DNA of 64,000 bases, from NCBI GenBank assembly GCA_029261035.1, contig JAJDCD010000025.1:2926-66925 (forward strand), written 5' to 3'. The notes beneath the pieces are model-generated. The model was not told the DNA's origin, searched no databases, and saw nothing but the letters and a program-made list of their open reading frames with translations. The stretch comes from Candidatus Omnitrophota bacterium (GTDB lineage Bacteria > Omnitrophota > Omnitrophia > Omnitrophales > JACROU01). The position numbers were made by a program, and so were the translations under genes. Positions 6,001-26,225 of this stretch are shown piece after piece. Every line of letters starts with the position of its first letter. Positions within the stretch are counted from its first letter, which is position 1.

Positions 6001-9000
6001 ATGCTATTTCGGCTGTAGTCAAATTGAATGTCGCTACTCCACCATCATTGATACCAATAGAAGTTCCAGCGCTAGCAGGTTGTAAAACTAAAGCTCCAGT
6101 TCCAGAAAGATTACCGCCAAGAGCAAGTCCATCGGCTGTAATCGTCATATCACCGCTACCAATAGCAATAGCGAAGGTAGTTGCTATAGTGCCTGTTGTA
6201 GAAGTTAAATCAAGGTTAGCTGTTCCACTCACAACAATCCCTGCTTCTCCATCCACAATCCCTACAGTAAATCCGTCAGAATCAGTAAAACTAAAAGAGT
6301 TGTTCGGGTCATTTATTTCTGCTGCTAAGGCATCCACATCATTAGCTTCGGTAAATGCTACAGTATTATCTGTAGTAATACGCAAAGCATCGACTGTAAC
6401 CGTTGACCCTGCTGTTTGTGTAACAGAATGTCCAGAAGTATTAATCAATGATAATACATCCACATTAGGAGGACTAATCGCTCCACGTACGGTAATATTA
6501 ATTGGATGAAAAACTGATCCTATTCTCAGTATAGGGGTTGTAATTGTGCTTAACTCACTATTATCAAGACTTAATTCACCCGCTTGTTCTAAACCTAAAG
6601 AAATATCTCTAGTTCCTGTAGTAGGAGTAATCTCAACAATGGCTCCTGGTGTTGTTGCTACTGTGTTAGCAGCTAACGACATAATATCAGCTATATAACT
6701 TACACCACCGCCACCCGTAATCGTTTTTGTAGCAGTTGTATTAATCGTTCCATTACTCCCTGCTTGAGATCGAATAAAGACTGTTCCTGTTCCAGCATTT
6801 ATATCTTCATTAACGGTAATAGTTCCTAGAAAACTATTAATGGTAATATTTCCATTATTTGTTGTAATACCACTAACTCCATCAACTGTGCCAATAGTAA
6901 TAAAATTATTATCATCAAATCTAAATTGTCCACTTGCTCCTGTAACATTACCAGCAATTGTTCCAATTTGGTTTTCATCCAATGTTGCTTCTGTTAAGTT
7001 CACGCTCGTCACAGCAGTGGCTCTTAAATTAGTTGCTGTAAGAATAGTGCTAGAACTTTGAGTAATTTGCCCACCAGAAACAAGAACTAACGTTGCTGCT
7101 GGAGAACTAAAATCATTATTAATAATAATATTTCCAGTTCCTTGAGATTCAAAAGACACTGTTGGAGCACTTAATCGAGAGGCTTTTGTGTTATCAAAAC
7201 TAACATCTCCTCCAAAAGTATTTCCCAAAGCAACACTTCCATCAACGCTTGATGGACGTATGGTTATTTTTCCATCACTTCGAATACTAGGAAGACCATT
7301 TAAATTATAATCATCAGCAACAATAGTAATGTCATCAGAACCGATTGTATTCGTAATTTCCATTAAGGAATCAACTGTAATTGTTGAGGTAGGCGCTCCA
7401 ATAGGAAAACTAATATTAATGGCACCTGCTCGGCCATTAAGATCTTGGCTGACCGTCAAAGTACCCGTATCAAGATCAATCGTAACCCCTTCAGCCGAAA
7501 TACCATTAATAGAATTAACGGTATCAACAGTAAGACTATTCGTATCTTTAAACGTTAACCCACCGGTAAAAATACTAGTAGCTAATGTATCTATATCATT
7601 ATCTTCTTGTAAGGTTGCTCCAAAAGATGAAATAGACAGATCATCCACTGTAATAACAGCTCCTGCATTTTGAGTAATCACACCTGTTTGTGATTCCAAA
7701 TTAGCTACAGCACCACTGCCGCCGCTACTAATTCCTGTAACCCCATCCACAATTCCAATCGCATAATTATCGGTATCTCGATAAGTAAGCGTGCCACCCA
7801 AAGAAGCAGCAAAAACAGCCACATTATTACTTGAAGTATCTAAATCAATATTATTCGATGAAATCGCGGCCACTGCTAAGTTAGTTACAACAAAACTACC
7901 AGACCCACTTCGAGTAATACCTCCAGAACCTGAGGAAAGAGAAAGTGTGGATACATTGGCCGGGGTAATAGCCAAATTAATATCAATAGACTGATTACCT
8001 GTAATTCTTAAAATATCTGCCGTAATCGTATCGATTTCTGCATCAGATAAAGCTAAAGTAGATCCAGAGCTACCTAATGTAATATCTCTAGAAGTACTAT
8101 TGGCATCAAGAATAGCAATTCCACCCGTTGCAAGTGTCGTACTAGAGGTGCTAATAGCCATATCATCTGCTGAATAAGTAACACCTCCACTACCACCGTT
8201 CACACTCGCAGTTCCATTTAGATTAAATGTATCTGTAGTAAGACTAACTCCACCACTACCACTGATTGTAATTCCTGTGCTAACTTCTATAATATCCGTT
8301 CCACCCGAAGATTGAAGTGTGACGGTTCCTGTTCCTGCAGTTACATTTTGACCAACCGTTATTGTTCCCGTTGCATCTATTTGGATATCTGCATTATTTA
8401 CAGACACTCCATTAACGCCTCCTAAACTTCCTATAACTAAATCATCTACCTCAACTATATTCAGATCTCCTCCAGCAGCCATCACACGAGCGGCCAATGT
8501 AGGAACATCTGTTTCAATAGCATCCAAACTACCTATCGAAGATTCTCCATCTAACAGAAGAATTCCTGTGCCAGAAATTGCTACATTATTAATTACTCCA
8601 TTAGAGTCACTTATAGAACCTGCAGAAATTAAAGAAAAGTTTTTATTCGTAGCCATGGTAACTAAATGTAAATTTGTATTTCCCGCACGAACAACTAAAT
8701 CATAACCTTCTGAAGATAAATTAGTATCACGGATATCTCCTCCCCCAGAACCAGCCGCTACACCAATAGTAACGGTACCTGTCGAAGCCAAAAGTGTCGT
8801 TAACTCACCCGTATCTAAATTAAAATTACCACTTCCTCCACTGAGAGCCACACCAATATTACCTACGGATGGTTCAAAGTTAACATCTCCTGAACCACTA
8901 TTGATAACTAAATTAAAATTATCAATGCGTGCCGCAATAAGAGTAATCGTAGTATTGTTTGAAGTAATGGTTGCCCCTGAAGTCAAAGCTGAAAATGCTC

Positions 9001-12000
9001 CAGCTCCACTATTATCACTATCAACATCAAAAGTGATTGTTCCCGTCCCCGTGGTACTAATGTCTGCTAATCCGCTATTCATTGAACTCCCATTAGGAGA
9101 ATTAATGGATATATTTCCATTTACTGCTGTAACAGGTCGTGTAATATTAACTATAGCCGTTGACACTCCTGTTCCTGCATTCATCGTAATATCACCGGTA
9201 CCTACAGTTGAAGTTGTTCCAGCAACTGATAAAGTAATTGCATCTCCTGCATTAAAAGTAATAGAACCATTACCACCACTAGCAGTTACATTTGCTTGAA
9301 TTGTTAAGTCATCTGTTGCAGCAGTTCCAGAAGCCGTGAGAACAATATTACCACCACCGGTATCCACAACATCTTTGGTAATAGTTAATGGACTTAAGGT
9401 TACAATTGAAATTCCACCACCATTTGTGAGAACACCAATCGTTCCACTCACTGTATCAACGATCATGCCACCCGCAGTATCCGTAATATCAATCCCTCCA
9501 GATCCTGTGTTAGCAATTGCTATATTAGTTACATTCACATCCACATTAACTGTAGTAGCCGTATTCATGGATAGGTTCGTTACTGTTAGATCAACGGTTC
9601 CGTCCCCAGCGCCTTCTTCAACAACACCTGCTCCAGAAACTAAATTTAATGTAGAAACATTAGATAAAACCAAAGAATCAACTCTGAGGTCTGCTGTACC
9701 CGTATTACCGATGGTAAGGCTTGTTGCCGTAATTTGATCTAATTGAACTTCAGAGAAAGTTAAATCCCCGGTTCCTCCACCCAAACCAATTGTTCCACCC
9801 GTCGTTGATGGTTCTAAAGTCACATTTCCAGAAGTAAAACTAAGAGTACTATTTAATGTAATCGTATCAGAAATTATTGTGGAATCTCCTGTTTGTGAAG
9901 ATAAGCTTCCAGTAGGATCTAAAACAAAAGAACCTACTCCATTATTGTCAGAATCTGCATCAAAAGTTAAATTACCGGCATCTGTTGTTGATACAACATC
10001 ACTAATTGTTATTCCATTATTCGCAGTGAATGACATATTAGAAGTTCCATCAGAAGAAGAAACACCACCTTCTCCCGCTATTATGCCAATGGACCCGCCA
10101 ATACTAACAAGATGAACATCTGCATTCGTTGATCCTTCATCAATTTCTGCTATCGTAACATTGCCTCCAGCAGAAATAGTCAACGCTTCATCCGATGTAC
10201 TCGTATGACTAATTCTTGTACCGGCTCCCATCGTAAAAACACCTGCCGTTGCTGTGATTTGGGTAGACAAAGGTCCAGAAGCTTGAATCAAAGCACTATT
10301 ACCAACAATAATATCTGTTCCTGCAGTTAATATAAGGTCGCCTGTAGAAGAATTAAAATAACTAACAGAAGCATTAATATTTAAATTACCTGACGTAGCA
10401 ACCAAACTAACTCCTAAAGCATCATTTCCTCCATTTGCAGCTGCCTCTATCGTTAAATTACCGGATGTCGTCACATGTAAACCTCCACTTGAAGATAGGC
10501 CTGAAAATCCTAAACCACCGGGGTCTGCAATAATCGTTAAATCACCTGTATTATCAATACTAATCGTATTACCTGCTATTTGAGTTCTTCCAATAATGCG
10601 TTGTATTTGAGTTTCTATTCGATCTGCTTCTGTTCCAAACTTTGTTGTGTTATCAATTACCAGAAGCCCATTCGATCCTGCAATTTGAACATTGTTTAAA
10701 GGGCCATTACCATCTACAATTCCTGTCCCTGTGCTATCCATATCAATAGTTAGTATTTTATCTGTGTTTAAAATAACTTCATTGATAGTGCCTGAGGTTC
10801 CTCTAACCGTTAAATTATAATCCTCACCACTTAAGTCCACATCTCCAAGAAGAATATTAGCTGCAAACCCGCCATTTCCAATAATCAATGTTCCCGTTGT
10901 TGCAAATACATCCAGTTCTGCTTGAGATAAATTAACTGAATTAAATTGTATTGATCCTAATCCATAGCCAATGCCAGAAATAGAAGCCGTAACAGTAATA
11001 TCAGCTGCATCTGCAGTTATTGTTCCTGAAATCGTTACATCATCTGCTCTGATTAATATACCGCCAGAAGCAGAAATAATAGAACCTGCATTATTTTGAT
11101 TAAAATTTCCTGTTCCATTAAAATCACTGTCTGAAAGAAGAGATAAAGCACCTGATGTGGTAACATCAGCGCTTGCTCCATTAAAGGTAATATCTGTTCT
11201 GGAATTAATTGTTATTTGCCCACCATCCGTCGTTAATGGTTGATTGATAAAAACGTCTTGAGAAGCTCCATTCTGAGAAATGGTTAACGTTCCCCCTCCT
11301 ACAACACTAACGCCATCAACACCTCCAACACTACCTATCTCTATATCACCTGTAGAAGTTGGAGTACTTATTGAAACATTTCCTGAAGTCGTAGTACGAG
11401 CTGCTACACTTTCAGTGAAAATATTGGATGGAAACTGAACACCAGAAGCAACACCGGTTACCGCATCAAAAAGAACCCCTCCACTTTGACCTAATGCAAC
11501 ATAGCCCACACCTGCAATATTAGCTGTAGAAATAAGTTGAAGAAATTGATCTGTTCCTAAAGTTATAATTTCTAAACTAACAGGACCTACTTCAATAAGC
11601 CCGCCTCGAATAACTACATCATAGAACTCTGTTGAAAAATTAATCGCCTGTATATCTACCGCCCCGGTTCCTGTAGAAATACCAATTGTTAATGTTCCTG
11701 AAGCGGTAATTTGAGTTGTTAGATCTGCTGTTGACAAACTAAAATCGCCTGCAGCTCCATCGGCAACAGCAATCGTTCTTGTATCCGTTGATGGTTGCAA
11801 TATCACATTACCCGAACCCACACTAATCGTACCCGTCAATGAAACATCTGCGGCTGTAATCGTAACGTTATTATTTGATAAGGTAATGGCGGCACCTGCA
11901 TCATCTAAAGTAAAATCACCTGTTGCGTCATCATTACTGTCTGCATCCGCTGTAAAAACTCCACCTGACGCAGTTACATCAGCTCCTGCATTTGTTAACG

Positions 12001-15000
12001 TAATTCCATCAACAGCAGTCAAGAAAACACTTCCATTCCCGGCATCTAAAAGAGCTGAAACAGTAAGAGCACTTGTTCCAGTTGCTGCTGTTAAGAATAT
12101 ATCTCCTGTTCCTGGTGAATTTAACGCTTGAAGGACACTAAGATTCCCATCAGCATCTACTTGGATAGAACTATTTCCAACTGCTGTAATTCCTGAAACA
12201 CCGTCAACTGTTGTAATGGTTAAATCATCAGAATCTCTAAAGGTAATAATTCCATCAAATGTAGAAACAGCTGCAAAGTCATCAGCATCATTACTTGTTT
12301 GAAATAAACTAATATTCTGTGCTGCTCGAGCGACAATACTTCCTCCTTGAACAGCTCCTCCAGTTTGACTAACACCTCCAATTCCACCTCCCCCACCATT
12401 ATCTGCAGTAATCCGAATCAATCCACTCGTACTAACCGTTCCTGAATTTATAATTACATTATCTCCAGCAAAAAGTTCAATCGTACCCCCCCCCGTACTT
12501 GCAACATTTGCTGCAATTGTTAAATGATCATCTCCGCCACCGTCCCCTGTAGCTGTCAAATTAATAGCTCCGGCTACTGAAATTGCAGAATTTACCGTTA
12601 ATGGCGAAGAAGCTGCAATGGCAATATCCCCAGATGTATTTACAGTAATACCCGTCTCAAAAGCAACAGTTGAAAGGGTTAAAGCCCCCGTATTAGAAAC
12701 AAAAACTCCTACAGTATCTGTTGTAGCTGAAAAATTTGAAACAGCTGTCAAAATAGGAGTTCCGGATAAACCAATCCCATCATCCACATCTATTTCTAAA
12801 CTTTCAACAGTAATAGTAAAAGCTCCACTACGAACAATATCTGCACTTCCACCTATTCTTAATGCGGATGCATTGGCAGGGTTAATATTATCGCTAATCG
12901 TAATTGTTCCTGAGTTAGCAGAATCAATTTGAATTCGAGTTGCTACTGTTATCGTATCTAGTTCCGCATCCGTCAAACCTAGCACGCCTAAAGCATCTGC
13001 CCCTCCCAAATTAACTTGAAGGCTTCCTGTAGGCGAAAGTAAACTAGCAATTCCTGCCGTAGACGTAGTTGTTCCAATTAAACTCATTCTATCTGCATTG
13101 TAGGTTATATTTGTAGCTGCTCTCAAATTTCCAGCAATGGTTAAAGTTCTATTGCTCAAAAAGGCTTCAAGCTGTACATTACCCGTAGTTGCTTCAACAT
13201 CATTGGTTGCAGCCGTATCCAATACTTGCAAATCACCATTAGCAAACACACCTACATTAGCCGTAGCAAGAACACCATTAACACCATCCACAGTTCCAAT
13301 ATTTAAATTAGCATTATTTCTAAATCTAAAAAATGCCCCTAATTTTGTAACAACACCCGCTAAAGTTCCCACTGTATTATCAATGTTGTTATCTAAATCT
13401 GCAGTTCCTGCAGATCGAATCACAAGTGTAGAAGCACTAATAACACCATTCGTTTGAGTCACTACTCCATCTTCTTGCGCAGTTCCCCCATTGTTAGCTG
13501 TAATTCTTACTAACCCACCGGAAGTTGTTATCGATCCAGTCGTATTGATAATGACATCATCTCCCGCCAATAATGAAATAGTTCCTCCCGTGGTACTCGT
13601 GACAGATGCCGCACTAGAAATAGTTAAATGGTCATCATCCCCACCATCATTTACTGCTTCTAAAGTAATTGCGCCAGGTCCAGAAACCGTTTCTGTAACA
13701 TTTAAAGGACTAGAAGCTACAATTTGAATGTCACCACCCGTTGTTGAAACTCCTGTAGTTGCTCCAATACCCCCTATTGTTAATTGACCCGTGTTACTGA
13801 TAAAGATTCCACTCGTGGCACTTCCGACTTCTAAATTACTTGCTGTCGTATTCAAAACTGTTCCTACAGTTCCAACTCCACCACCCGCTGTCGTCAAAAC
13901 AATGTTACTTGCTGTTAACGAAGTAGAAACACCCCCCGTAAGACTTCCTCCTGTGGAAGATAGAGTTAGAGTTCCAGCTCCTGCATTTATGGTTCCAGGA
14001 ACAATAGAAAATGCAGTAATACTAATATTTCCAGAAGTCGTATTAACAATTCCTAAATTATTAAACGAACCCACCATGGTGACCGTTTGATTATTAACAT
14101 TAAAAGTTCCTGAAGAAATGGTTAAGTTTCCATTTAAATTGAGGGCTCCTGCAAGTTGCAACGTTGAAGTCCCTGCGTAAATCAAATTATTAAAGGTACT
14201 ACCCCCCACTTCTAATGTTTGGGAAGAAGCCCCTGTTAATTGAAAAGTACCGCTACCAGGATTGAAGGTACCACTATTATTTAAATTACCTTTTAATGCC
14301 AAAGTTCCTGAATTCGATGCCGTAAAGGATCCTCCTGCATTAATGTTTAAATCGCCATTGATGGTGATGTTTGGATTAAAATTAGTTGCTGTTACATTCA
14401 TTCCAGCACCTACAGTCAGGTTGCCGTTGACTGTTAATGTTTGACCTCCTGCTGTACCCAGACGAATTTCTTTTGTTCCTAAATCAACCTTGATGATCTT
14501 AGCAATATTACTATAGCTTCCAAAGTAAGCGACTCCATTAGCAACATCAATTTCTGCTGTTTGTAAAAATTGTTCCGAACTCTGCAAATTAATAGCTCCT
14601 ACTCGAGTTAGATCAGAAAGTTGAACCTTAACAATATTAGCACCGCCGGAATTCATTCCGACATAACCAAATCCGGAAGCCACATCAATAACGAATGAAT
14701 GAGGGTTATTTTCATCTCCACCAAAATTCAAAGTAAGTTCATCAACTTGTGTAAAAGTGGACAAATCAATTTTGGCTAATTTGCCAGGGCTAGATGACTG
14801 GGCTGCTGTATAAAGAAAACCATTCGTGGTGTCAATGGCTGAAGATCTAACTTGATTATGTCCTGAAGTTAAGGTGATTGCAGAATCCCGCGTAAACGTA
14901 CTTAGATTAATTTTAACAACCACAGATGGATTTGCTTGTCCAAAAAAGTAAGCAAACCCATTAACCGTATCAATCTCTGCATTTCTAAATTGATTTTCAC

Positions 15001-18000
15001 CCACATTTAATGTAATCGTACTATCAATCATAAATGTAGAAAGATTAACTTTAAGTATACTTCCAGGAGAAGCTTGCGTTCCGAAATAAGCAAATTGATT
15101 AGCCTCATCAATAATGGCAGACTGAATATTATGTGAGCCACCCGCAGATAATGCTCCTACTCGAGTAAAGGTAGCTAAGTTTACTTTAACTATTTGAGAT
15201 GGATTTGGTGACTCAGTCGTAAAATAAGCAAACTGATTACCCACATCAATAATCGCTTCACTAATTTGATCTTCACCTGCACCCAATGTTAACGTTCCAA
15301 CTAAAGTAAAATCAGAAAGACGCACTTTAAGAACAACTCCAGGATCTGTATCTGTTCCAAAGTAAGCAAAGCCATTCGTTAAATCTATAGTAGAAGCTTG
15401 GATATTTTTATTTCCAGCATTTAATGTTATTGCTGAAACTCGAGTCATCGTACTTAGGTTAAACTTTACTACGATTCCTGGTTGTGTAGAAGTCCCTATA
15501 TAACCTAAAGAATTTGCATTATCAAGAATTAATCCACGCCCACTATTTTCACCTGCATTAAGTAGCAATCCAGAATCACGAGTAAACGTACTTAAGTTAA
15601 TTTTAACTAGATTAGTGGGTGAGGTGAATGTAGATGCATAAGCAAAAGAATCTGTATTATCAATAACAAGACCAAAAATTATGTTTTCCCCTGCATTTAA
15701 TGTTAACGCGGAGTCCCGAGTAAAAGTAGATAAGTTAACTTTAACTACGATTCCTGGCAGCGTTTGTGTTCCAGCATAAAGAAAAGAATCACTGCTATCA
15801 ATTGCCAACGTACGAGGAGAATTTTCACCTGTATTTAAGGTTAAAGCAGAAACTCGAGTAAAACTGGTTAAATTAATTTTAACAATCTTCCCAGGACTGG
15901 TGAGAATAGAAAAATAAGCGAAACTTCCTGTACTATCTATAACACCAGCTTGAGGTTGGTTTTCACCTGATTGAAGCTGAATTGCTGAAACAAATTGAAA
16001 GGTATTTAAATCAATCTTAGCTATAGAACCAGGAAACGTTCCACTAACACCTAAATAAGCAACTTGATTGGCTAAATCGACAACACTAGATGAAACAGCA
16101 AATAGGTTTAGCGGTGAACTTGGGAGTTCGAGACCATCCACTCGAGTAAAGGTATTTAAATCAACCTTAGCAAGCCACCCAGGTAAACCTCCTCCACCAA
16201 AATAAGCAAAACCATTGGGCACATCAATAAAAGCGGTACTCGCTCCCACTTCATCCAAGCCTAAAACGATAATACCCACTCGAGTAAAAGTAGACAAATT
16301 AACTTTAATCACAACCGCTGGAGACGTTCCGGTTCCAAAATAAATAAATCCATTAACTGTATCAATAACAGATGATGCGATCGTATCCTCTGGGATATTC
16401 CCATAAATTAAATCCGCTTTTTCAAAACCAGTTCCTTCTAATAGAAGATTATTGAAAGCACTTAAAGGACCTGCTGCCGTAATATCCACTGTACCTGAAC
16501 CTGTAAATTGAACTGTGTTTGGTGTGTTTGTTGTAGTGTCTAAAGTTCCAGTCCCCGTCAAAGGAGAACCTGTCCCTGTAATATTAAGCACCCCATTAGA
16601 CCCCATAACGAAAGATCCTGGATTATCAATATTCATTGTTTGGACAGTCGTTGTTCCTGAACCACCATTAACTGTTCCATTCGATTGGTTAAATGCACCG
16701 GATACCGTTAAGTCTCCAGAAAGGGTGAGTGTTCCTATATAAGCGGCTGTCATTGTTAATGAAAGAACACTAAAATTACCATCCATAGTTGAGTTTGCTG
16801 TAGAAGTTCCATCAAATACGATATCATCTCCAGCTCCAGGAGTAGCTCCCCCAAGACCAGACCAATTTGCTGTATTGGACCATAAATTATCTCCTCCTCC
16901 ATTAGTCCAGGTTCCTGTTGGGTCCCAGTTGTAGCTACCATCCCTATTGGTGGACTCCGTCATGATAATTTTATCTGGGCTTAAATTATGAGAATCTTCT
17001 ACCCAGGTGTAGGTAAGGTCTCTAATACCAGATGGATTTACATACCAGGTTCCCTCAGAGTCGTTGGATAGCAATCGGACATGACTGCCGTAAGAACCCT
17101 GAGTCTTCCAAGTCCCTGAAATAGTCTGAACCTCGTCCGATTCAAAATAGATGTACTTGTTTGGTGCTGTAACAGTAAAGTTATAAAATTGGTTACTCTG
17201 ATAAATCGTCGAACTTTGGCTCGAATCTACAAATTCGACGGTTGAGATGCCTGGCTCAAAATGACCCATATTATTCCAGTCTCCAGAAATCAGATAATGA
17301 GCATCTGATCCAGATAATGTGATTCCAGAATGAATCATCATGGACCCACCCACAGAAACAACAGAACCAGATTCTTGAGAATAAGTAATAGGATTAGAAA
17401 GAGTATTTAAAGACAAGTTACCAGAAGTCTCGATGTTACCTAATTGCATGGATTGGTTTGAGGTAAGATAGATGCCACCCGATCCAGAAGTGGCTGTCAA
17501 ATAATTAGCTTGTAGTATTACAGGGTCAGAAGAAGTACCAATAGAAGAGTTAGAAGCGGGTGGCCCGCGGATGTCAATGCTTCCGGCTATTAAAAGTGAA
17601 CTACCCATTTCAGCTCCTACGACAGACCCTTCAGAAAGGGTAAGAACAATATCTCCCGTTTGAGCATTTACCGTTCTAAGAAATATCTTTCCATTTCCAA
17701 CAACCCCATTTCCAATACTAAGACGTATAGGCGCTCCTGAAGAGTTCAGATCCGCACCTGGCATTTGGACAATATTACCTGTTCCTTCCATATCTGCATT
17801 GGCTTGGATGTCAATCACACCTGTGCCAAATGTAACCAATGGGGCTGCCAGAATAACATCCTCATTCGCAGACAAAAACATGGATCCATGGACTCCTATC
17901 GCTGAACTCTGAAGAATAACACTATTAGCCTCGTGAATATAAGACCCTTGAGATCCCACATTCAAACTTAGACTATCGGCATTAATTCCTACGGGGGAGC

Positions 18001-19525
18001 CAGAATCACCCACTCCCGTACTCGCAACTAAACTTACATGAGCACCCTCGACTACAGTAGAAGCAAGACCATCATCCACTAAAGCACCTGTTAACGATTC
18101 TATATATATGTCCCCTAAACTATGAATAGATCCTAAACTCGTATTGTCCTGCTCAACGATATAGACCCCACCCGAACCCGATCTCGCATTCAACAAACTG
18201 GACTGTACTTGAATAGGATTCTCAAGAGTTCCTACAGATGTGGTTCCTGTAGCTCCTGCATTCAGAGTCACAACTTCGGCTGTAATAAGAGAAACTCCTG
18301 GGGCTACTTCCAAAATACTTCCCAACTGAGATTCCAGCGTTATATCTCCATGACTCACCGTCATAGAAGATACTCTAATATTGTCACTCATCTGAATATC
18401 TAAATTCCCATGACTCACTCTAAGTTCTGCTGGAGCCGCCTGAATAAATTCACCTCCACCCGTCATTTCAACCATCCCTTGGAGATGAACATCAGACACT
18501 ATATATATATTCTCTACAGCGTTCACATCAATTTGTCCCTGAGTAGCTCCTACTTGAGCACTTGTATCGACATCACCTTCCATGTAAACATTCTCACCCT
18601 CCATCTTCACTTTACCACCATCGAGAGCATAGATTGTTCCAGAATGTGTAACATCCCCACCAACAGCAAGAAACTCAATAACTCCGTTTTCTTCTACGTA
18701 TGCGTTAGCTTTGATAACACCCTTCTGATTAACTAACATATCAAATACATCACTCACCTGATTAGCCGTCAAAATAACTTTTCCTCCATCAGCCTCTATA
18801 GTACCCACATTTTCTACAGCAGATTCTGTAGATGATGGTGCTGTATCTACATCAATTCCTTCATCAACAACAACACTGACTAAACTGCTTAACCCAGATG
18901 CTCCAAAACTAAGGGTCACTTTATTCCCACTAGCTAAAACCACATTCCCTTTTTCTGCTACAATCACACCTTCATTTGAAACTCGACTTCCAAAAAGACC
19001 TACAAGACCATCCTCAACCACCGAAATTTGCCCCTGATTGATAATCACCCCTGCTGGCAAATTGTTTTTATTCACGAAATTAAAATTACCTGCCATAAAA
19101 TCATCATTTGAGATATCCAAAGCAGAAGCAATTAAATTTCCAACATTAATTTGAGAGGTTGGATCAAATGTAATTCCATTTGGATTTACAATCATCACCG
19201 TTGCATTTGCATTGAGTGCTCCAGAAATAATACTCGCGCCTCCACCAGTAACTCGATTTAAAACTGAGGACGTATCAAAAGGCTGAAAAAAGTTAACCGT
19301 TTCGTTTGAAGCAACATTAAAATCGGTCCAAGAAATAACTGCTTGATGAGAGGTTGTAACATTTAAAGTGGCTGAATCAGGACGATCAAAACTAACACTT
19401 CCTTCTTCAACAGATTCACCGGTAGGCAAAGCATGAACAACAGAGATTGGAAGCAATAAAAGAAGTACCAATCCCATTAAAAACGTTGGTAGAAATTTTT
19501 TATTTCTCAATGTTTTATCAACCAT
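1..19525 (-). CDS. Giant secreted TpsA/filamentous-hemagglutinin-like exoprotein, partial: N-terminus at 19525, C-terminus beyond window start, at least 6,508 codons in window
   Basis: Hand translation of the reverse complement from the ATG at 19523-19525 gives MVDKTLRNKKFLPTFLMGLVLLLLLPISVVHALPTGESV, a signal peptide. The TPS domain follows: ...ISWTDFNVASNETVNFFQPFDTSSVLNRVTGGGASIISGALNANATVMIVNPNGITFDPTSQINVGNLIASALDISNDDF, with the NPNGI hallmark shared with ShlA/HpmA/FhaB. Further downstream are Gly/Thr/Ser/Asn-rich beta-helix repeats and PATR-like motifs (GTLALKGNLNNSGTFNPGSGTFQLTG). The ORF track lists no M-to-stop pieces in this minus frame between 1 and 19525, which fits one continuous frame with no stop inside the window. 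Confidence 0.8.
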   Translation of the reverse strand, partial: MVDKTLRNKKFLPTFLMGLVLLLLLPISVVHALPTGESVEEGSVSFDRPDSATLNVTTSHQAVISWTDFNVASNETVNFFQPFDTSSVLNRVTGGGASIISGALNANATVMIVNPNGITFDPTSQINVGNLIASALDISNDDFMAGNFNFVNKNNLPAGVIINQGQISVVEDGLVGLFGSRVSNEGVIVAEKGNVVLASGNKVTLSFGASGLSSLVSVVVDEGIDVDTAPSSTESAVENVGTIEADGGKVILTANQVSDVFDMLVNQKGVIKANAYVEENGVIEFLAVGGDVTHSGTIYALDGGKVKMEGENVYMEGDVDTSAQVGATQGQIDVNAVENIYIVSDVHLQGMVEMTGGGEFIQAAPAELRVSHGNLDIQMSDNIRVSSMTVSHGDITLESQLGSILEVAPGVSLITAEVVTLNAGATGTTSVGTLENPIQVQSSLLNARSGSGGVYIVEQDNTSLGSIHSLGDIYIESLTGALVDDGLASTVVEGAHVSLVASTGVGDSGSPVGINADSLSLNVGSQGSYIHEANSVILQSSAIGVHGSMFLSANEDVILAAPLVTFGTGVIDIQANADMEGTGNIVQMPGADLNSSGAPIRLSIGNGVVGNGKIFLRTVNAQTGDIVLTLSEGSVVGAEMGSSLLIAGSIDIRGPPASNSSIGTSSDPVILQANYLTATSGSGGIYLTSNQSMQLGNIETSGNLSLNTLSNPITYSQESGSVVSVGGSMMIHSGITLSGSDAHYLISGDWNNMGHFEPGISTVEFVDSSQSSTIYQSNQFYNFTVTAPNKYIYFESDEVQTISGTWKTQGSYGSHVRLLSNDSEGTWYVNPSGIRDLTYTWVEDSHNLSPDKIIMTESTNRDGSYNWDPTGTWTNGGGDNLWSNTANWSGLGGATPGAGDDIVFDGTSTANSTMDGNFSVLSLTMTAAYIGTLTLSGDLTVSGAFNQSNGTVNGGSGTTTVQTMNIDNPGSFVMGSNGVLNITGTGSPLTGTGTLDTTTNTPNTVQFTGSGTVDITAAGPLSAFNNLLLEGTGFEKADLIYGNIPEDTIASSVIDTVNGFIYFGTGTSPAVVIKVNLSTFTRVGIIVLGLDEVGASTAFIDVPNGFAYFGGGGLPGWLAKVDLNTFTRVDGLELPSSPLNLFAVSSSVVDLANQVAYLGVSGTFPGSIAKIDLNTFQFVSAIQLQSGENQPQAGVIDSTGSFAYFSILTSPGKIVKINLTSFTRVSALTLNTGENSPRTLAIDSSDSFLYAGTQTLPGIVVKVNLSTFTRDSALTLNAGENIIFGLVIDNTDSFAYASTFTSPTNLVKINLSTFTRDSGLLLNAGENSGRGLILDNANSLGYIGTSTQPGIVVKFNLSTMTRVSAITLNAGNKNIQASTIDLTNGFAYFGTDTDPGVVLKVRLSDFTLVGTLTLGAGEDQISEAIIDVGNQFAYFTTESPNPSQIVKVNLATFTRVGALSAGGSHNIQSAIIDEANQFAYFGTQASPGSILKVNLSTFMIDSTITLNVGENQFRNAEIDTVNGFAYFFGQANPSVVVKINLSTFTRDSAITLTSGHNQVRSSAIDTTNGFLYTAAQSSSPGKLAKIDLSTFTQVDELTLNFGGDENNPHSFVIDVASGFGYVGMNSGGANIVKVQLSDLTRVGAINLQSSEQFLQTAEIDVANGVAYFGSYSNIAKIIKVDLGTKEIRLGTAGGQTLTVNGNLTVGAGMNVTATNFNPNITINGDLNINAGGSFTASNSGTLALKGNLNNSGTFNPGSGTFQLTGASSQTLEVGGSTFNNLIYAGTSTLQLAGALNLNGNLTISSGTFNVNNQTVTMVGSFNNLGIVNTTSGNISITAFSIVPGTINAGAGTLTLSSTGGSLTGGVSTSLTASNIVLTTAGGGVGTVGTVLNTTASNLEVGSATSGIFISNTGQLTIGGIGATTGVSTTGGDIQIVASSPLNVTETVSGPGAITLEAVNDGGDDDHLTISSAASVTSTTGGTISLLAGDDVIINTTGSITTSGGLVRITANNGGTAQEDGVVTQTNGVISASTLVIRSAGTADLDNNIDNTVGTLAGVVTKLGAFFRFRNNANLNIGTVDGVNGVLATANVGVFANGDLQVLDTAATNDVEATTGNVQLEAFLSNRTLTIAGNLRAATNITYNADRMSLIGTTTSTAGIASLLSPTGSLQVNLGGADALGVLGLTDAELDTITVATRIQIDSANSGTITISDNINPANASALRIGGSADIVRSGAFTITVESLEIDVDDGIGLSGTPILTAVSNFSATTDTVGVFVSNTGALTLSTVAFETGITVNTSGDIAIAASSPLTVNSAISVAGAINLTATGDGGGDDHLTIAANVASTGGGTIELFAGDNVIINSGTVSTSGLIRITADNGGGGGIGGVSQTGGAVQGGSIVARAAQNISLFQTSNDADDFAAVSTFDGIITFRDSDDLTITTVDGVSGITAVGNSSIQVDADGNLSVLQALNSPGTGDIFLTAATGTSALTVSALLDAGNGSVFLTAVDGITLTNAGADVTASGGVFTADADSNDDATGDFTLDDAGAAITLSNNNVTITAADVSLTGTISVGSGNVILQPSTDTRTIAVADGAAGDFSLSTADLTTQITASGTLTIGISTGTGAVDIQAINFSTEFYDVVIRGGLIEVGPVSLEIITLGTDQFLQLISTANIAGVGYVALGQSGGVLFDAVTGVASGVQFPSNIFTESVAARTTTSGNVSISTPTSTGDIEIGSVGGVDGVSVVGGGTLTISQNGASQDVFINQPLTTDGGQITINSRTDITFNGASADVTTSGALSLLSDSDFNGTGNFNQNNAGSIISASGGILIRADDVTISGTITADAADITVTASISGIGYGLGSIQFNSVNLSQAELDVFATTGTLIIGNGGFAANILLGDVDLSGEDYNLTVRGTSGTINEVILNTDKILTIDMDSTGTGIVDGNGPLNNVQIAGSNGLLVIDNTTKFGTEADRIETQIQRIIGRTQIAGNTISIDNTGDLTIIADPGGLGFSGLSSSGGLHVTTSGNLTIEAAANGGNDALGVSLVATSGNLNINASVSYFNSSTGDLILTAGTDIIVGNSALIQASGPLSTQITATAGVFTMGAGTRISHTSTSDEALTISAGGNVTIAEIDEGSTNADVHLVSIGGSIGIIAGEGGVSSSDGTSNMSFTANNGITISDVVSTTDAGNLTFDADSDNNGVGSFVLDPTGSLSSQTGDSTIISDTITLNSTLSFTSGNVTLEPSTTGGTIGLGGGTGDLTFSEVQLDQITATSLTIGNTGTADLRVDSLVLSNVSTLNLVSGAGVVEEGAGDGTVDLTVTNLSMNTATTVNVDVNVTNIAIANTGSGGIDITDTAGGMIVDTVSGTIGVLTNGGGISIVTLSPLTITKDVVDTGGGNIVLTASGTAATDDLTIQANVTASGGNGSITFNAGDAITLSVAGTTSTVGTGDITMNAGTGVSTAIVNITRPVTAVNGNISINSPNGSSMNSGLADISTTGTGTITFDVDSDNSGAGAFSALTSGATITSNNTTITLIAARIDNFNLVINSGSGDVNFEPSVGNIGVALSGGSGNFNLDTGELTTLLASTGTVTIGVAAGSGGGDIRDTNLSSEGYDLVVRAGNTNLHLVTMATNKNFSLISAGSISDSNGVINNVAISGTGILLLDGESSIGSLDAIETDVPTLAARVMAAGGDLNIVEVDDLVIGSLGGVNGVSVNNADIQIDATGTITVGQNVTAGTGTVTLQSSGGTDIIEVSTGITISGSGGVSLTTDTFNLNGTASVNGGSGGVTYSADDMAISTSSTTLATGGIAILDANSTSRDITLGSSGSTLALSDAEIDTITADILRITGNQSIDINLAITPANVSTLSLSSGSGGITRSGSGSFVVTNLAVAAISSNNIDLDTSSNNVAVFAASLGGTLTYRDTDNYAIGIVDGVTGISSGGSGAVANLESQTGVITQNAGAVITVDDLSISSFGATLQEDNDIDTLATSIFTGGLTFKDTNSLTVDTVNSINGISAEGVTIDLDTGTLTVSQDLNGRAGAINISFPIGAPTSTITVDSLMEITNTIGSDDITIVADDYNLNGLPSIRSDGKITIRPSSVDGSVALGNTFGGDVSFDNTKASRLSAPTVSFESQGTGNIIINNDFSSPAATLVLVSGGQITQSSSTILTATNLRATAVTSVNLTEATLDENQIGTIAGNVTGASGQFRFDDNNFITIGTVDGVSGITTNNGNITINSFLGTITVNEDINAGTGTVFIRSQAGSNGTINTTATKTITGGGGVSYIADIMSLAANTVATTPGAIVEITPTTGTRDISLGLEQAGELSLDNSELSTITTPILRIGSVFHPINITVRGAISPPNVDVLSLINTSGHSVTQTAGSTVTVDALRITTDNTVAFTEANDVDALAAEINDPNNSFSFTDSDGFTVGIVDGEAGIVVSGTANLDLTSTTGTIATTFAIAIGSGDMTITADGLALGGNLSGTGALVLQPASAGTSIGINDGGVATFNLTTAEIAFLQDGFLSITIGRSDGTHAITYGSFSVSDPFLLRAPVSGGSITGNAAITSSDDASITLTSDGTINLNNSITTDEADIVINANVQLPASTFVILSMGGGATDGNITINGTINGGASAGLTLSAGTNTGVITLNGVIGASTAPGQLNITSSSVTNLTDSITTSGSMFITAAAANVSAGTYTSESGTIDFSGMVTLLGNAVFDAGSTSAGSVVFDQTIDGAFDLTVNLNSNSDVEFKGEIGGTTPLASLTVNNADNVRMFGGTVGSPTSINVETTGNQTIDSDTFDIYAAVTTSGGNVDYTAPGIGGIHLEGAVSFTTGGGDVIFRDQISGLEDITITAGTGNVEFQGNFTINSLNVISANEVDFQGFSTFTGNPTVTATTIILPTTILSSTTNATYTYNGNITLVGPTTFSDIGSGTYYNVVINGDINGASNLTFTNGPGADVTITGNIGNVTPIGALSFNSLHNDVTINGNVTTTDNINLGSVQGTIIVTGDFETTGLFDTQLYRSPTAVQLSGNFTSNFGDISVDGAGAITLVGNTTFDLTGGSGDLTLSQPINGAFSLDISNGSSVQLLGAVGGTTPLTSVTVSTSSFSNVGGVITTGAQSYTATGFAVSFNGGTVQTTNSNITMNSGSLNILLDGVLTITTGAGGGDIDFQDVIGGSSTSLTINAGTGTVTFAGNVTSTGLQNITGSTINLNGSHDTNSGAITLTGAVVLGASTTLDSDNFTGGADITIAGTIDGAQSLTIDAGGSSNVDFQGEIGGTTPVGAISFSFNGANNVDFGADVTAASIDTGFSVNQVTFSGDVTTTGTQSYFADTNRFNTGTFSTSDSDITSFGSLVLLGNVTFDTGSGAGDIGFDGTIDGAFDLTLDSGTGDISLNGVVGGSTPLAAVNVVDASAVSVNANLDAASFTITSATTATFTSDTTTTGVQSITATTINPGSSHSTTNSNITLTGTVVLLRDSTFNTNTGIGNVHFTSTIDGFRALTVTAGTGNVQFDGAVGGITPLEALVISSANNIDFNGAVDVDQSPAGLGRVLTQLFGTAFEESGFDIFIDASDNIYLTGFTDGDLNGETNSGGIDAFTIKMNSSGVVQWTRLLGDGSYTAAYSVVANAAGDVYIGGLTDVDLPMSNGFPGEDSEVAMIAKYNSSGTLQWTRLINGLDGTVEYGFADAIDLDSSGNVYVVGTTYDDDDFFGFGIAASYTSAGVERFVANYSGASTEDVSLLDLVIDSNDRVFSVGYSDNDIGGQTGSGGYDLLLVEINNSTGALVWTILDGNGSDVGGYAITLDASEDIYVTGYADDDFNGQTASGGSADTLIMKYLVQASPTPPTLDFTTLFGDGTEFYQGVDIKVVGASLFVLTNIDAANSHLLLTEHALTGGAPVESVILGDTDSSSIFGQIGVQSTGEIYVIGQSNGDFDGVTGLGITDIIFTEFGQVPASGGAISITHTGTLTVPVGSTLGAEGGFTESGGPVSLSANIDTGNENSSFSGDVTLGDNVAVNTETGTIIFSGNLIVGTNTLTLTGDGINFTGGANSVTGTGALILQPASTSTSIGIGGAAGTLQLSTADITALQDGFSSITIGRSDGSGTITMDATSFNDPITIRSPQPGGSIIIDGQLTSTGAVTIDGPGATTVLNADIVTSGVAITISDSVELGEGLSISLDTTNSGGSPAGANITITGTTDGTAGGSAENLHVYGGTTGNVTLGGAVGGTTALGNLTFTSAVLATLQAGATTINGTLSIGSNTVVSIEGQSLTANVLDNSGTFRLQGGETVSITTYDTNSGTTEFVGTNGGTTHNINNVSTAYNDLLINDANGTEDTFTSTVALDVNGDLTLTDGIFTSPSSTLNVGGDFTHGTNATFNHNNGEVILDGTLQTITPLPSGNTTFFDLTNDDSATGDTLTFAANNGTVVIANDLLLHGQNAANRLLLVSDNPGTQWRIDPQGTRNILAVSVTDSNNINATAIQATDAASTNGGNNTNWLFVGDITGTLLDSIGGTGVAGKTIAL
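14470..16430 (-). repeat. Array of about 14 tandem 138-bp (46-aa) coding repeats inside the giant gene. Consensus roughly IDxxNGFAYFGTxTxPGxVVKVNLSTFTRVxALTLNxGENxx; probable beta-propeller or beta-sandwich blades
   Basis: DNA-level periodicity of about 138 bp. On the plus strand the motif ctcgagtaaa.gta...ttaa.tttaac recurs near 14600, 14750, 14890, 15030, 15170, 15300, 15435, 15575, 15710, 15850, 15990, 16140 and 16275. The translation shows the repeated FAYFGT...PG.VVKVNLSTFTR...GEN units. Confidence 0.7.
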
Positions 19526-20090
19526 GAATTTGCCCTTTGTAGTTTTAGTAGCTACAAATTAGTTACATAATAAATATAACATATTAAAAGTATTTAAAAC
19601 TATTGCATCTAATTAATAACACCTCCTCATAAGCTAAAACCCCCTATAATTACAAGGGGTTACACTCCATGTAAAAGAGAGAAAAAAGTGTACAAATACC
19701 CCCTATATTGCCTAACTCTCAATTGGAATCACTTTTTTGAAGAAATTTGTAATACCTTAAAAGAGAAGATAAATAGATGAAGAAAATAAGAAAAAATGAG
19801 AGAAAAATTCAAAGGAATAGAGTAAGAATTAAATCTTAAGTTTAAACACTAAACTTAAAACTAAAACAAAAAAATAAGAAAAAAGCAGCAAAAAAAACTA
19901 AAAAATTAAGCCCTTTTTTTTAATAAACACACACAATTAAGTTCAAAACTCTTACTCAAAAGAACATAAGAGTCCCCTCATTTTTAAATAAACTTTTAAG
20001 AGAAAAAAAGAATTAAATGATGAAGAAAAAAAGAACAATTTCTGAAGATATTTTGAATAAATTTAGGAGAATTTTTCGTTAAATGAACTT
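19526..20090 (-). promoter_or_regulatory. AT-rich upstream region of the giant gene, about 560 bp with A-tracts; presumed promoter/regulatory region. A perfect 8-bp-arm palindrome gtacatgg-c-ccatgtac lies just upstream of it at 20095..20111
   Basis: No ORF of 60 aa or more here. Long A-runs (aaaaaaataagaaaaaagcagcaaaaaaaactaaaaaatt). A possible SD (aaaggg) sits 8 nt before the ATG. Confidence 0.3.
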
Positions 20091-20104
20091 CAAAGTACAT
20101 GGCC

Positions 20105-20146
20105 CATGTACCAGACTAAACACTTCGCTACGCTTCGTAGTCGGTG
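20105..20146 (-). repeat. Conserved tRNA-trailer element, copy 1, 3' of tRNA-Tyr. Consensus on the minus strand: ACCGAC..CGAA...GAAGT....T.TGGTCTGGT(A/T)CATGG
   Basis: Similar to 20355..20397, which sits 3' of tRNA-Gly: catgtaccagactaaacacttcgctacgcttcgtagtcggtg versus ccatgaaccagaccaaatattttacttcatttcgcggtcggta. Confidence 0.4.
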
Positions 20147-20245
20147 CAAGGCTCACCACGCATATTTTAATATTAAAGGTTTATTTGGCTTGCCATGCAC
20201 CTAGCTGTGAACCGTTTTTTCAGCGTTCACGTTTAGCATGGTGCG

Positions 20246-20330
20246 TGGTGGGGAGAGCAGGATTCGAACCTACGAAGGCGAAGCCAGCAGATTTACAGTC
20301 TGCCCCAGTTGGCCGCTTTGGTATCTCCCC
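20246..20330 (-). tRNA. tRNA-Tyr (anticodon GTA), long variable arm, CCA encoded
   Basis: Reverse complement: GGGGAGATACCAAAGCGGCCAACTGGGGCAGACTGTAAATCTGCTGGCTTCGCCTTCGTAGGTTCGAATCCTGCTCTCCCCACCA. It gives a cloverleaf with anticodon loop CTGTAAA and closely resembles bacterial tRNA-Tyr. Confidence 0.85.
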
Positions 20331-20354
20331 AAAAGTATTATTTTGATATTTACC

Positions 20355-20397
20355 CCATGAACCAGACCAAATATTTTACTTCATTTCGCGGTCGGTA
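20355..20397 (-). repeat. Conserved tRNA-trailer element, copy 2, 3' of tRNA-Gly
   Basis: See copy 1 at 20105..20146. Confidence 0.4.
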
Positions 20398-20435
20398 ACA
20401 GAGTCGCTTTTCTTTAATGAATATTAAAGAAAAAA

Positions 20436-20509
20436 TGGAGCGGGTGAAGGGGATCGAACCCTCATGACTAGCTTGGAAGGCTAGGGCTCTACCATTGAGC
20501 TACACCCGC
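20436..20509 (-). tRNA. tRNA-Gly (anticodon TCC), CCA encoded
   Basis: Reverse complement: GCGGGTGTAGCTCAATGGTAGAGCCCTAGCCTTCCAAGCTAGTCATGAGGGTTCGATCCCCTTCACCCGCTCCA, with anticodon loop CTTCCAA. Confidence 0.85.
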
Positions 20510-20679
20510 TTGTGTTTTTCGTGTAGCGAAAGAGCTACGAAGGCATGGATGCTAAGTGCCGATTTTATGCCATGGATGGCATGCTTTTTATCGGCCACCC
20601 GCCTCTCTCTTCACTACCGGGTACTACAAAATCGCTTATTCTTCTAAATCTCAACCTTACGCCTCTATTGCTAAACCAC

Positions 20680-21036: not shown

Positions 21037-21064
21037 AACACATCACCTATCTATTATTATCAAA

Positions 21065-21140
21065 TGGAGCTGGCAGAGGGAGTCGAACCCACGACCTACT
21101 GATTACAAATCAGTTGCTCTACCAACTGAGCTATGCCAGC
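21065..21140 (-). tRNA. tRNA-Thr (anticodon TGT), CCA encoded
   Basis: Reverse complement: GCTGGCATAGCTCAGTTGGTAGAGCAACTGATTTGTAATCAGTAGGTCGTGGGTTCGACTCCCTCTGCCAGCTCCA. Confidence 0.85.
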
Positions 21141-21209
21141 ATCCGGTTTGTTACATAGCTCATTTACAACTGATAATCAAGTTGCTCCCTGCCTACCGGC
21201 AGGTAGGTA

Positions 21210-26200: not shown

Positions 26201-26225
26201 AAATTATCCTTTGTCTATTAGTGCA

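What the first reader, a model, noticed from the sequence alone, without database searches (positions are those of the whole stretch)
14470..16430. In-frame array of about 14 tandem 138-bp repeats encoding 46-aa units (FAYFGT..PG.VVKVNLSTFTRV..LTL..GEN) inside the giant gene
The DNA is periodic at about 138 bp and the protein is periodic at 46 residues, with conserved aromatic/Gly and NLSTFTR motifs. This is the size range of beta-propeller blades (Kelch/YVTN/NHL-like). Fourteen units could form two 7-bladed propellers embedded in a beta-helical fibre. Such near-identical tandem coding repeats are hotspots for copy-number variation and phase-variable surface structure, and for assembly errors.
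Basis: seen in the sequence. Interest (0 to 1): 0.55.

Follow-up and report, generated by a model that had tools for sequence, protein, structure and literature searches.

The report
Double seven-bladed propeller in giant adhesin
The 14 repeats are real but old and diverged; they fold into two seven-bladed beta-propellers of an unannotated repeat family, forming a probable binding head inside a giant secreted fibre protein of an Omnitrophota bacterium, and the copy number is fixed, not variable.

Summary
There are 14 in-frame units of 45-50 aa (last one 35 aa) on the minus strand, nt 14453-16372 (aa 1063-1702). They lie in a stop-free reading frame of at least 6,508 aa that runs off the window.

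The gene starts with a signal peptide and a TPS domain, so it encodes a two-partner-secretion (FHA-like) passenger. Neighbouring genes place the genome in Omnitrophota.

AlphaFold (pLDDT 94, pTM 0.87) gives four strands per unit. Foldseek matches tandem 7+7 double propellers (TM up to 0.72).

No Pfam or NCBIfam model detects the repeat. Even so, about 3,300 protein clusters carry it, mostly proteins with signal-peptide-like N-termini, and nearly always in arrays of 7, 14, 21, 28 or 35.

The "near-identical, copy-number hotspot" reading fails:
- The units share 42% aa and 52% nt identity.
- The longest shared exact word is 17 nt, and Tandem Repeats Finder reports nothing.
- Synonymous sites are close to saturated.
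- The syntenic ortholog in a related genome also has 14 blades.

The leader-propeller-flank cassette is the most diverged part of the gene between the orthologs (45% against 59-69%). I read it as a ligand-binding head on the fibre; this function is inferred, not shown.

The parts
2..19525 (-). Giant gene (5' part only; the frame is open to the window edge), at least 6,508 aa from ATG 19525. It encodes a TpsA/FHA-like two-partner-secretion passenger.
   Evidence: Stop-free frame 19558..2. TPS domain PF05860, 99.7 bits, and TIGR01901, 79.5 bits.
19427..19525 (-). Predicted Sec signal peptide (MVDKTLRNKKFLPTFLMGLVLLLLLPISVVHA|LPTGE).
   Evidence: Read from the translation. Basic N-region, hydrophobic core and an A-x-A-like site; no predictor was run.
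18635..19357 (-). TPS (two-partner secretion) domain, aa about 68-308.
   Evidence: Pfam PF05860 E 3e-28. 59-67% identical to the syntenic ortholog.
16424..16921 (-). Leader segment (aa about 880-1045, W..NW...PG..D..F-type short-strand repeats). It also lies directly upstream of the propeller array in 37 of the 224 retrieved family proteins, so it is part of a mobile cassette.
   Evidence: phmmer of the flanks against family proteins. A2 consensus. AF2 pLDDT 45-90 with short strands.
16373..16423 (-). Closing ('velcro') strand plus loop (aa 1046-1062, KADLIYGNIPEDTIAS). It is a D-strand equivalent that precedes blade 1.
   Evidence: Strand E7-13 of the model. Strand count is 1 + 13x4 + 3 = 56. 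The same D-strand + GE(N) loop precedes the 7-blade array in L001.
15395..16372 (-). Blades 1-7 (aa 1063-1388), assigned to the first seven-bladed propeller.
   Evidence: The split into 7+7 is inferred from the Foldseek matches and from the quantisation in sevens; coordinates of the model could not be inspected.
14453..15394 (-). Blades 8-14 (aa 1389-1702), assigned to the second seven-bladed propeller. Blade 14 has only three strands.
14039..14452 (-). Post-array flank (aa 1703-1840). It is shared with the other TpsA proteins that carry the cassette.
   Evidence: P0243 aa 2912-3051, E 8e-16. Ortholog aa 2652-2969, 46% identity. AF2 confidence is low.

Best explanation
The array encodes a tandem pair of seven-bladed beta-propellers. 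Each 46-aa unit is one four-stranded blade, and a strand ahead of blade 1 supplies 'velcro' closure. The blades belong to a widespread repeat family that no Pfam or NCBIfam model detects; its consensus is AVIDxxxGFAYFGTxTxPGxVVKVxLSDFTRVGxLTLxxGE[ND]. Together with a leader of about 170 aa and a trailing flank of about 140 aa, the array forms a cassette inserted about 1,000 residues into a giant TpsA (filamentous-haemagglutinin-like) exoprotein of an Omnitrophota bacterium. SHOWN: the periodicity, the blade count, the fold, the family, the TPS domain, blade numbers in multiples of seven, the old age of the duplications, and the same count of 14 in the syntenic ortholog. INFERRED: the protein is exported by a TpsB partner that lies outside the window and forms a long fibre on which the double propeller sits as a globular ligand-binding (adhesion) head. 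The cassette's faster divergence would then reflect changing target specificity. Copy number is constrained by ring closure, so this is not a slippage or phase-variation locus.
For: Periodicity and 14 units.
Fold: AF2 pLDDT 94, pTM 0.87, 56 strands. Foldseek best hits are tandem 7+7 WD40 proteins (SSU-processome chains at TMq 0.72, rmsd about 5 A over about 715 columns; the Utp21 tandem WD domain 4nsx at TMq 0.54; FAP52 at about 0.50), all at about 10% identity.
Family: more than 523 hits down to E 1e-200, almost none with an informative name. A profile search found 3,288 cluster representatives at E<=1e-3 among 1.84e9. Array sizes are 7 (43 arrays), 14 (117), 21 (4), 28 (1) and 35 (1).
Secreted context of relatives: 75 of 108 have signal-peptide-like N-termini by a crude test. 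Partner domains are Ig-like, PKD, BACON, dockerin, SLH and an S8 peptidase-like region in Micromonospora.
TpsA identity: TPS domain. Four other TpsA genes carry the array: P0243/L004, which has a TpsB directly upstream; L005 with two genes (35 and 14 blades); and the ortholog L007.
Stability: 52% nt identity and a 17-nt longest shared word. Same-codon fraction 0.535 against 0.477 expected, and no lag-322 peak. GC3 of the array is 0.20, like the rest of the gene at 0.185-0.23 downstream of the TPS part. The syntenic ortholog (YebC through QueF, 55-82% identical, same tRNAs) has 14 blades.
No catalytic signature: of the 104 columns conserved at 80% or more in 14-blade homologs, all but one (a Glu ahead of blade 1) sit at the repeating consensus positions.
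Cassette divergence between orthologs: 45% identity, against 59% for the TPS part and 69% for the shaft.
Against: No binding partner or function was tested; the adhesion role rests on analogy with other TpsA proteins and surface propellers.
No TpsB gene lies in the 44 kb upstream, and the 3' end of the gene is outside the window.
The beta-helical nature of the flanks was not confirmed.
The 7+7 split was not checked on model coordinates, which the tools do not expose.
The very high conservation of D4, Y11, K23 and E41 in every blade could be purely structural.
The lower identity of the cassette between orthologs could reflect replacement by recombination rather than fast evolution.
Confidence: 0.8

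Rival explanations
1. Contingency locus: near-identical tandem coding repeats expand and contract by slippage or recombination, giving phase or size variation of a surface structure, or causing assembly errors.
For: It is a tandem in-frame array in a surface-protein gene. Shaft-repeat content around the cassette does differ between orthologs by about 930 aa.
Against: Units share 52% nt identity, the longest shared exact word is 17 nt, and TRF reports nothing in the array. Synonymous sites are close to saturated. The ortholog also has 14 blades. The family is quantised in sevens, so single-unit changes would break the fold.
Confidence: 0.03
2. The double propeller is an enzyme (a lactonase-, PQQ- or hydrolase-type propeller) delivered by the fibre, for example to attack a prey cell envelope.
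For: There are weak sub-threshold hits to the 7-bladed Lactonase family (PF10282, 13 bits, E 0.058; PRK11028, E 0.077; YbhE, E 0.087). One relative (Micromonospora) carries a subtilisin (S8)-like region next to seven blades; this was read from the translation, not tested with a family model. Omnitrophota giant proteins have been linked to cell-wall degradation (bioRxiv 10.1101/2023.11.21.568195).
Against: No family threshold is met. All but one of the strongly conserved columns are the same repeating positions in every blade, with no blade-specific His/Cys/Asp/Glu constellation. Partner domains in relatives are mainly binding or anchoring modules.
Confidence: 0.07
3. A purely architectural element: a rigid knob, spacer or oligomerisation platform that shapes or bundles the fibre without binding an external ligand.
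For: The blades are extremely uniform, with conservation concentrated in strands. The two propellers have a defined mutual orientation (pTM 0.87). Tandem WD40 pairs, the best structural matches, are scaffolds.
Against: The cassette is the fastest-diverging part of the gene between orthologs, which is unexpected for a pure scaffold. The same module occurs in about 1-kb secreted proteins that have no fibre.
Confidence: 0.1

Closest known systems
Tandem seven-bladed WD40 double propellers (Utp21 4nsx, other SSU-processome chains, Pwp2, FAP52)
   Same: 14 four-stranded blades in one chain folding as 7+7. These are the best Foldseek matches, with TMq up to 0.72 over about 700 columns.
   Different: About 10% sequence identity and no WD40 HMM hit. 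They are eukaryotic intracellular scaffolds, whereas this is a bacterial secreted protein. These blades are far more uniform.
Lactonase-like / YbhE 7-bladed propellers (PF10282); by my own recollection the related YVTN-type surface propellers
   Same: Seven blades. They give the only propeller-family hits in sequence space, all weak: PF10282 E 0.058, PRK11028 E 0.077, YbhE 1ri6 E 0.087. [quoted passage not shown]
   Different: All hits are below the curated cut-offs. TIGR02276 (YVTN) did not appear in the NCBIfam scan at E<=1. No catalytic residues are conserved.
YWTD / LDL-receptor class B propellers (LRP2, LRP6)
   Same: The blades have the same logic...vD...g.lY[WF].[DT]......I.r..l.g.....l. 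The family profile hits the LRP2 YWTD region at full-sequence E 5e-6.
   Different: The best single-domain E is only 0.013. By textbook knowledge YWTD propellers have six blades. There is no PF00058 hit. They are eukaryotic.
TpsA exoproteins (FHA, HMW1, CdiA, HxuA)
   Same: N-terminal signal peptide plus TPS domain. Relatives sit next to a POTRA_2+ShlB TpsB gene. In CdiA, a central receptor-binding domain within a long fibre is the established model; this comparison rests on my own knowledge.
   Different: No TpsA with an embedded beta-propeller turned up in the literature search. None of the 120 closest TPS homologs, and only 1 of 36 metagenome TPS loci, carries the blades. The protein is much larger, at more than 6,500 aa.
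WRAP (Npun_R6612), 14 near-identical blades forming two 7-bladed propellers
   Same: 14 blades folding as 2 x 7, an example of propellers amplified from a single blade (PMC9218822).
   Different: WRAP blades are almost identical with no synonymous changes, so the amplification was recent. Here the blades share 42% aa identity with nearly saturated synonymous sites.

Membership tests
Beta-propeller fold | Repeats of about 40-50 aa, each forming a four-stranded antiparallel blade, closed into a toroid | tested here: met
   AF2 pLDDT 94 with 56 strands = 14 x 4. 1,837 PDB matches at E<=1e-3; all 50 listed are propeller proteins.
Tandem 7+7 double propeller | 14 blades folding as two seven-bladed rings rather than one large ring | tested here: met
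   TMq 0.72 to tandem WD40 pairs. Array sizes across the family are 7, 14, 21, 28 and 35. Model coordinates were not inspected directly.
   No such hit at E<=0.01 for the window protein or for 41 homologs. None at E<=10 for the window array or for a consensus 7-mer.
YVTN repeat (TIGR02276) | Match to the NCBIfam repeat model | tested here: not met
   The NCBIfam scan at E<=1 returned only PRK11028 at E 0.077, 12 bits against a 370-bit cut-off.
Lactonase 7-bladed propeller (PF10282) | HMM score at or above 21.7 bits | tested here: not met
   13.0 bits, E 0.058.
YWTD / LDL-receptor class B | PF00058 match; six blades per propeller | tested here: inconclusive
   No Pfam hit, but the family profile hits LRP2 at E 5e-6, best domain 0.013. 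The blade number here comes in sevens.
TpsA (two-partner secretion passenger) | N-terminal signal peptide followed by a TPS domain | tested here: met
   PF05860 at 99.7 bits against a 33.5 cut-off; TIGR01901 at 79.5 against 29.1. The signal peptide was read from the sequence.
TpsA (two-partner secretion passenger) | Cognate TpsB (POTRA + ShlB-type barrel) gene, usually adjacent | not testable with these tools
   None lies in the 44 kb upstream. The 3' side of the gene is outside the window, and the source contig could not be fetched. Relatives L002, L003 and L004 have an adjacent TpsB.
Contingency / phase-variable tandem repeat locus | Near-identical DNA copies that allow slippage or homologous recombination; copy number differing between close relatives | tested here: not met
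   52% nt identity, 17-nt longest shared word, no TRF row in the array. 14 blades in the syntenic ortholog.
Diversity-generating retroelement target | Template repeat elsewhere matching the variable region; nearby reverse transcriptase | tested here: not met
   No DNA repeat links the array to any other part of the window. The neighbouring ORFs that were read or scanned against Pfam are housekeeping genes. Only the window was searched.

The most novel reading that the evidence does not exclude
An unannotated and unusually blade-uniform propeller family, always built in sets of seven, serves as the exchangeable or fast-evolving receptor-binding head of giant TpsA fibres in Omnitrophota, bacteria described in the literature as host-dependent or predatory, and it sets which partner or prey cell surface they attach to. 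Two observations fit a specificity cassette under diversifying selection or recombinational swapping: the cassette is only 45% identical between syntenic orthologs whose shaft is 59-69% identical, and it shows almost no blade-by-blade orthology (permutation p about 0.06).
Probability: 0.2. Interest if true: 0.55.

Novelty: new variant of a known kind. Interest (0 to 1): 0.36.

Why it matters
It gives a fold and a likely role to a piece of "dark" sequence in one of the giant genes for which Omnitrophota are known.

It identifies a widespread 46-aa propeller repeat family (about 3,300 clusters at 50% identity) that Pfam and NCBIfam do not detect. A family model could be built directly from the blade alignment made here.

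It corrects a tempting misreading. Protein-level tandem repeats here do not mean unstable DNA. The repeat number is locked in multiples of seven by ring closure, while the surrounding shaft repeats are what differ between orthologs.

If the cassette is the specificity determinant of the fibre, it is the obvious fragment to express for finding the host or prey ligand of these uncultured bacteria.

Tried and rejected
- TRF on 12000-19000 found nothing in the array because the copies are too diverged.
- Exact look-ups of the window RuvB and of the 100%-identical AspRS P0352 failed to retrieve the source contig. The gene's 3' end and any downstream TpsB therefore stay unknown.
With the single protein, the genome collection gave only a Micromonospora locus.
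I reached the ortholog instead through a metagenome scan with the TPS domain.
- The second AF2 job, on aa 880-1850, did not resolve the flanks: leader pLDDT 45-90, C-flank below 40. "Embedded in a beta-helix" therefore remains an inference.
- A consensus 7-mer scanned against Pfam gave above-cut-off totals for CBD_PlyG and DUF5650. These arise only by summing seven identical fragments of about 19 aa, and no stretch passes on its own. I rejected them as artefacts of the artificial query.
- Block duplication of 7 blades to 14 was rejected because there is no autocorrelation peak at lag 322 aa.
- Recent foreign origin of the array was rejected because its GC3 equals that of the rest of the gene. 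The lower total GC reflects amino-acid composition.
- I first thought the N-terminal strand closes blade 14, which would bring the cassette termini together. I dropped this because 7-blade relatives have the same D0 + 6xABCD + ABC layout. The simpler reading is two self-closing modules in series.
- A literature search for the motif AYFGT found nothing relevant.
Full report
**1.

The region lies inside a stop-free frame on the minus strand, from nt 19558 down to nt 2. The frame is open to the window edge, giving at least 6,508 aa from ATG 19525.

- DNA self-identity peaks at lag 138 nt: 0.463, against 0.30 +/- 0.023 for other in-frame lags.
- Protein self-identity peaks at lag 46 aa: 0.345, against 0.073 +/- 0.031. 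Flanking stretches of the same protein show no comparable peak.
- A motif anchor finds exactly 14 units with spacings of 45-50 aa.
- A blade HMM finds 14 domains (E 1e-12 to 1e-24) and none elsewhere in the protein.
- The units span aa 1063-1702, nt 14453-16372.
- The copies are not near-identical. Mean pairwise identity is 42% aa and 52% nt, with maxima of 65% and 64%. The longest shared exact word is 17 nt.
- TRF reports nothing in the array. The repeat finder recovers only 65-86-nt fragments at 62-75% identity, spaced in multiples of 138 nt.

**2. The host gene and organism**

The protein starts with a signal-peptide-like N-terminus followed by a TPS domain (PF05860, 99.7 bits; TIGR01901, 79.5 bits). 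That makes it a two-partner-secretion passenger of the filamentous-haemagglutinin type.

Near aa 5550-5950 there are SBBP propeller repeats. The long middle part contains several families of diverged shaft repeats.

The upstream 44 kb holds housekeeping genes: QueF, PdxJ, CdaA, RuvABC, YebC, FolP, FtsH, TilS, AspRS, HisRS, LptF/G and others. It also holds four tRNAs. It holds no TpsB.

The AspRS has a 100% match on an NCBI contig of 387,951 nt. Its named relatives at 59-66% identity are nearly all Candidatus Omnitrophica/Omnitrophota. The closest named TPS-domain relatives are also Omnitrophota. Giant genes are a known feature of this phylum (bioRxiv 10.1101/2023.11.21.568195 and 10.64898/2026.06.07.730766).

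**3. The fold**

I modelled aa 1040-1706 with a 41-sequence alignment. AlphaFold2 gave mean pLDDT 94 and pTM 0.87. The model is all-beta with 56 strands: one strand ahead of blade 1, then 13 x 4, then 3. That is 14 four-stranded blades with a "velcro" strand.

Foldseek against the PDB returns tandem 7+7 WD40 double propellers as best matches, all at about 10% identity. SSU-processome chains reach TMq 0.72 at rmsd about 5 A. The Utp21 tandem WD domain (4nsx) reaches TMq 0.54, and FAP52 about 0.50.

**4. The repeat family**

No Pfam or NCBIfam propeller model reaches threshold, either for the window protein or for 41 homologs.

The nearest sequence signals are all weak:
- Lactonase PF10282: 13 bits, E 0.058.
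- PRK11028: E 0.077.
- YbhE (1ri6): E 0.087.
- A family-profile hit to the YWTD propeller region of LRP2: E 5e-6, best domain 0.013.

The family is nevertheless large. One search returned more than 523 hits down to E 1e-200, almost none with an informative name. They come from Patescibacteria, Bathyarchaeia, Acidobacteriota, Sumerlaeota, Gammaproteobacteria and Actinomycetota. A profile search found 3,288 cluster representatives among 1.84 billion.

The blade consensus from 2,656 blades is very sharp: A-V-I-D(99%)-x-x-x-G-[FY]-A-Y(95%)-F-G-T-x-T-x-P-G-x-V-V-K(86%)-V-x-L-S-D-F-T-R-V-G-x-L-T-L-x-x-G-E(87%)-[ND].

Array sizes are quantised: 7 blades (43 arrays), 14 (117), 21 (4), 28 (1) and 35 (1). 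The off-values 8 and 13 are explained by a partial extra hit or a missed blade.

Most relatives have signal-peptide-like N-termini (75 of 108 by a crude test). They combine the array with Ig-like, PKD, BACON, dockerin or SLH modules, or with an S8 peptidase-like region.

**5. A cassette, not just an array**

The roughly 170 aa directly upstream of the array (aa about 880-1055) are homologous to the segment directly upstream of the array in 37 family proteins.

Four other TpsA genes carry the cassette:
- P0243 (3,990 aa, 14 blades), with a POTRA_2+ShlB TpsB gene directly upstream.
- Two adjacent TpsA genes in L005, with 35 and 14 blades.
- The syntenic ortholog L007 (below).

None of the 120 closest TPS homologs carries blades. 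Only 1 of 36 metagenome TPS loci does. The combination is therefore uncommon.

**6. Age and stability**

- At residues identical between blades, the same codon is used in 53.5% of cases, against 47.7% expected from codon usage. Synonymous sites are nearly saturated.
- There is no extra autocorrelation at seven units, so there is no sign of a recent 7-to-14 block duplication.
- GC3 of the array (0.20) matches the rest of the gene.
- A metagenome contig, Ga0315338_1000074, carries the same gene order: YebC, RuvC, RuvA, RuvB, CdaA, YbbR, PdxJ, NnrD, GIY-YIG, tRNAs, QueF, then the giant gene. Its housekeeping proteins are 55-82% identical to those of the window.
- Its giant gene also has 14 blades, at aa 1992-2644.
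- What differs is the shaft. About 930 extra residues of shaft repeats precede the cassette in the ortholog.

Copy-number instability of the blades is therefore not supported.

**7. An unexpected detail**

Between the two orthologs, identity varies strongly along the gene:

| Segment | Identity |
|---|---|
| TPS plus helix part | 59% |
| Downstream shaft | 69% |
| Leader | 45% |
| Propellers | 45% |
| Post-flank | 46% |

Blade i of the window is barely more similar to blade i of the ortholog than to any other blade: 0.45 against 0.425 overall. At variable positions the figures are 0.29 against 0.255, permutation p about 0.06.

The same lack of positional orthology holds against 40 more distant homologs: 0.403 on the diagonal against 0.401 off it.

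Two explanations remain open. Either the non-consensus positions evolve fast enough to be saturated, or the cassette has been exchanged by recombination.

**8. Mechanism**

Shown: a secretion-type N-terminus, a double propeller, membership of a mostly secreted-protein family, and no blade-specific conserved residues that would mark an active site.

Inferred:
- The protein is exported through a TpsB partner and forms a long fibre.
- The double propeller is a globular ligand-binding head on that fibre.
- Its rapid divergence reflects target specificity.

Rivals are an enzyme, a pure scaffold, a contingency locus and an assembly artefact. The first three are listed with their evidence. An assembly artefact is very unlikely, given diverged copies that assemble unambiguously and the same count of 14 in an independent assembly.

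**9. Verdict**

The "unstable near-identical repeat" reading is wrong.

This is a new, unannotated repeat family of a well-known fold, found in a known type of secreted fibre protein. That is moderately interesting. The most useful leads are the family definition and the cassette's fast divergence.

Noticed in passing
window 26205-26349, 27475-27618, 28425-28502: Three copies of an intergenic element in the RuvA/RuvB, RuvC/YebC and YebC/FolP gaps. Each has a perfect 12-bp-stem hairpin, CCTTCTCCCTCC-NNN-GGAGGGAGAAGG (0 expected by chance), flanked by short TAGCG/CGCTA-type tandem motifs. Copies are 67-84% identical. It could be REP/MITE-like or terminator-associated.
   Followed up: partly
window about 1679-2929 (-), aa about 5544-5960 of the giant protein: A second, unrelated propeller-type region with SBBP repeats (PF06739, 28 bits against a 20.5 cut-off) and internal repeats of about 175 aa.
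   Followed up: no
window about 2900-14000 (-), aa 1894-5540: Several families of diverged shaft repeats: about 367-aa units (aa 1894-2121 against 2261-2487, 44% identical), aa 2533-2750 against 3506-3718, and about 110-120-aa units across aa 4637-5540. The syntenic ortholog has about 930 aa more of such repeats upstream of the propeller cassette, so the shaft varies in repeat content, not the propeller.
   Followed up: partly
window about 16920-17340 (-) (aa about 740-880) and about 70-750 (-) (aa about 6270-6495): A domain of about 150-220 aa (motif ...W..DP.G.R....V.V.DS.N...) occurs twice in the giant protein and also in P0243 (aa 372-580 and 3435-3675). No Pfam match.
   Followed up: no
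L005 10001-28560 (NCBI GCA_964467905.1, CAYXSY010000017.1): Two adjacent TpsA genes (3,600 and 2,580 aa) carry 35 and 14 blades of the same family. The 35-blade array would make five propellers in a row.
   Followed up: partly
L001 7814-11404 (Micromonospora sp. NPDC002717): A 1,196-aa secreted protein combines a subtilisin (S8)-like region (read from the translation, no family scan run) with seven blades of this family. Its blades look much more alike than those in the window (by eye, not computed), suggesting a younger amplification.
   Followed up: partly
window 19525-21464 compared with L007 7081-9950: The tRNA cluster just upstream of the giant gene is rearranged between the orthologs. 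In the window, tRNA-Tyr lies between tRNA-Gly and the giant gene. In the relative it lies between tRNA-Thr and QueF.
   Followed up: no
whole window / protein databases: The window's AspRS is in the protein collection at 100% identity (P0352, NCBI contig of 387,951 nt). The giant protein itself was not returned by either protein search, and exact look-ups of RuvB and AspRS found no gene record. The giant gene may be unannotated or split in the public record.
   Followed up: partly
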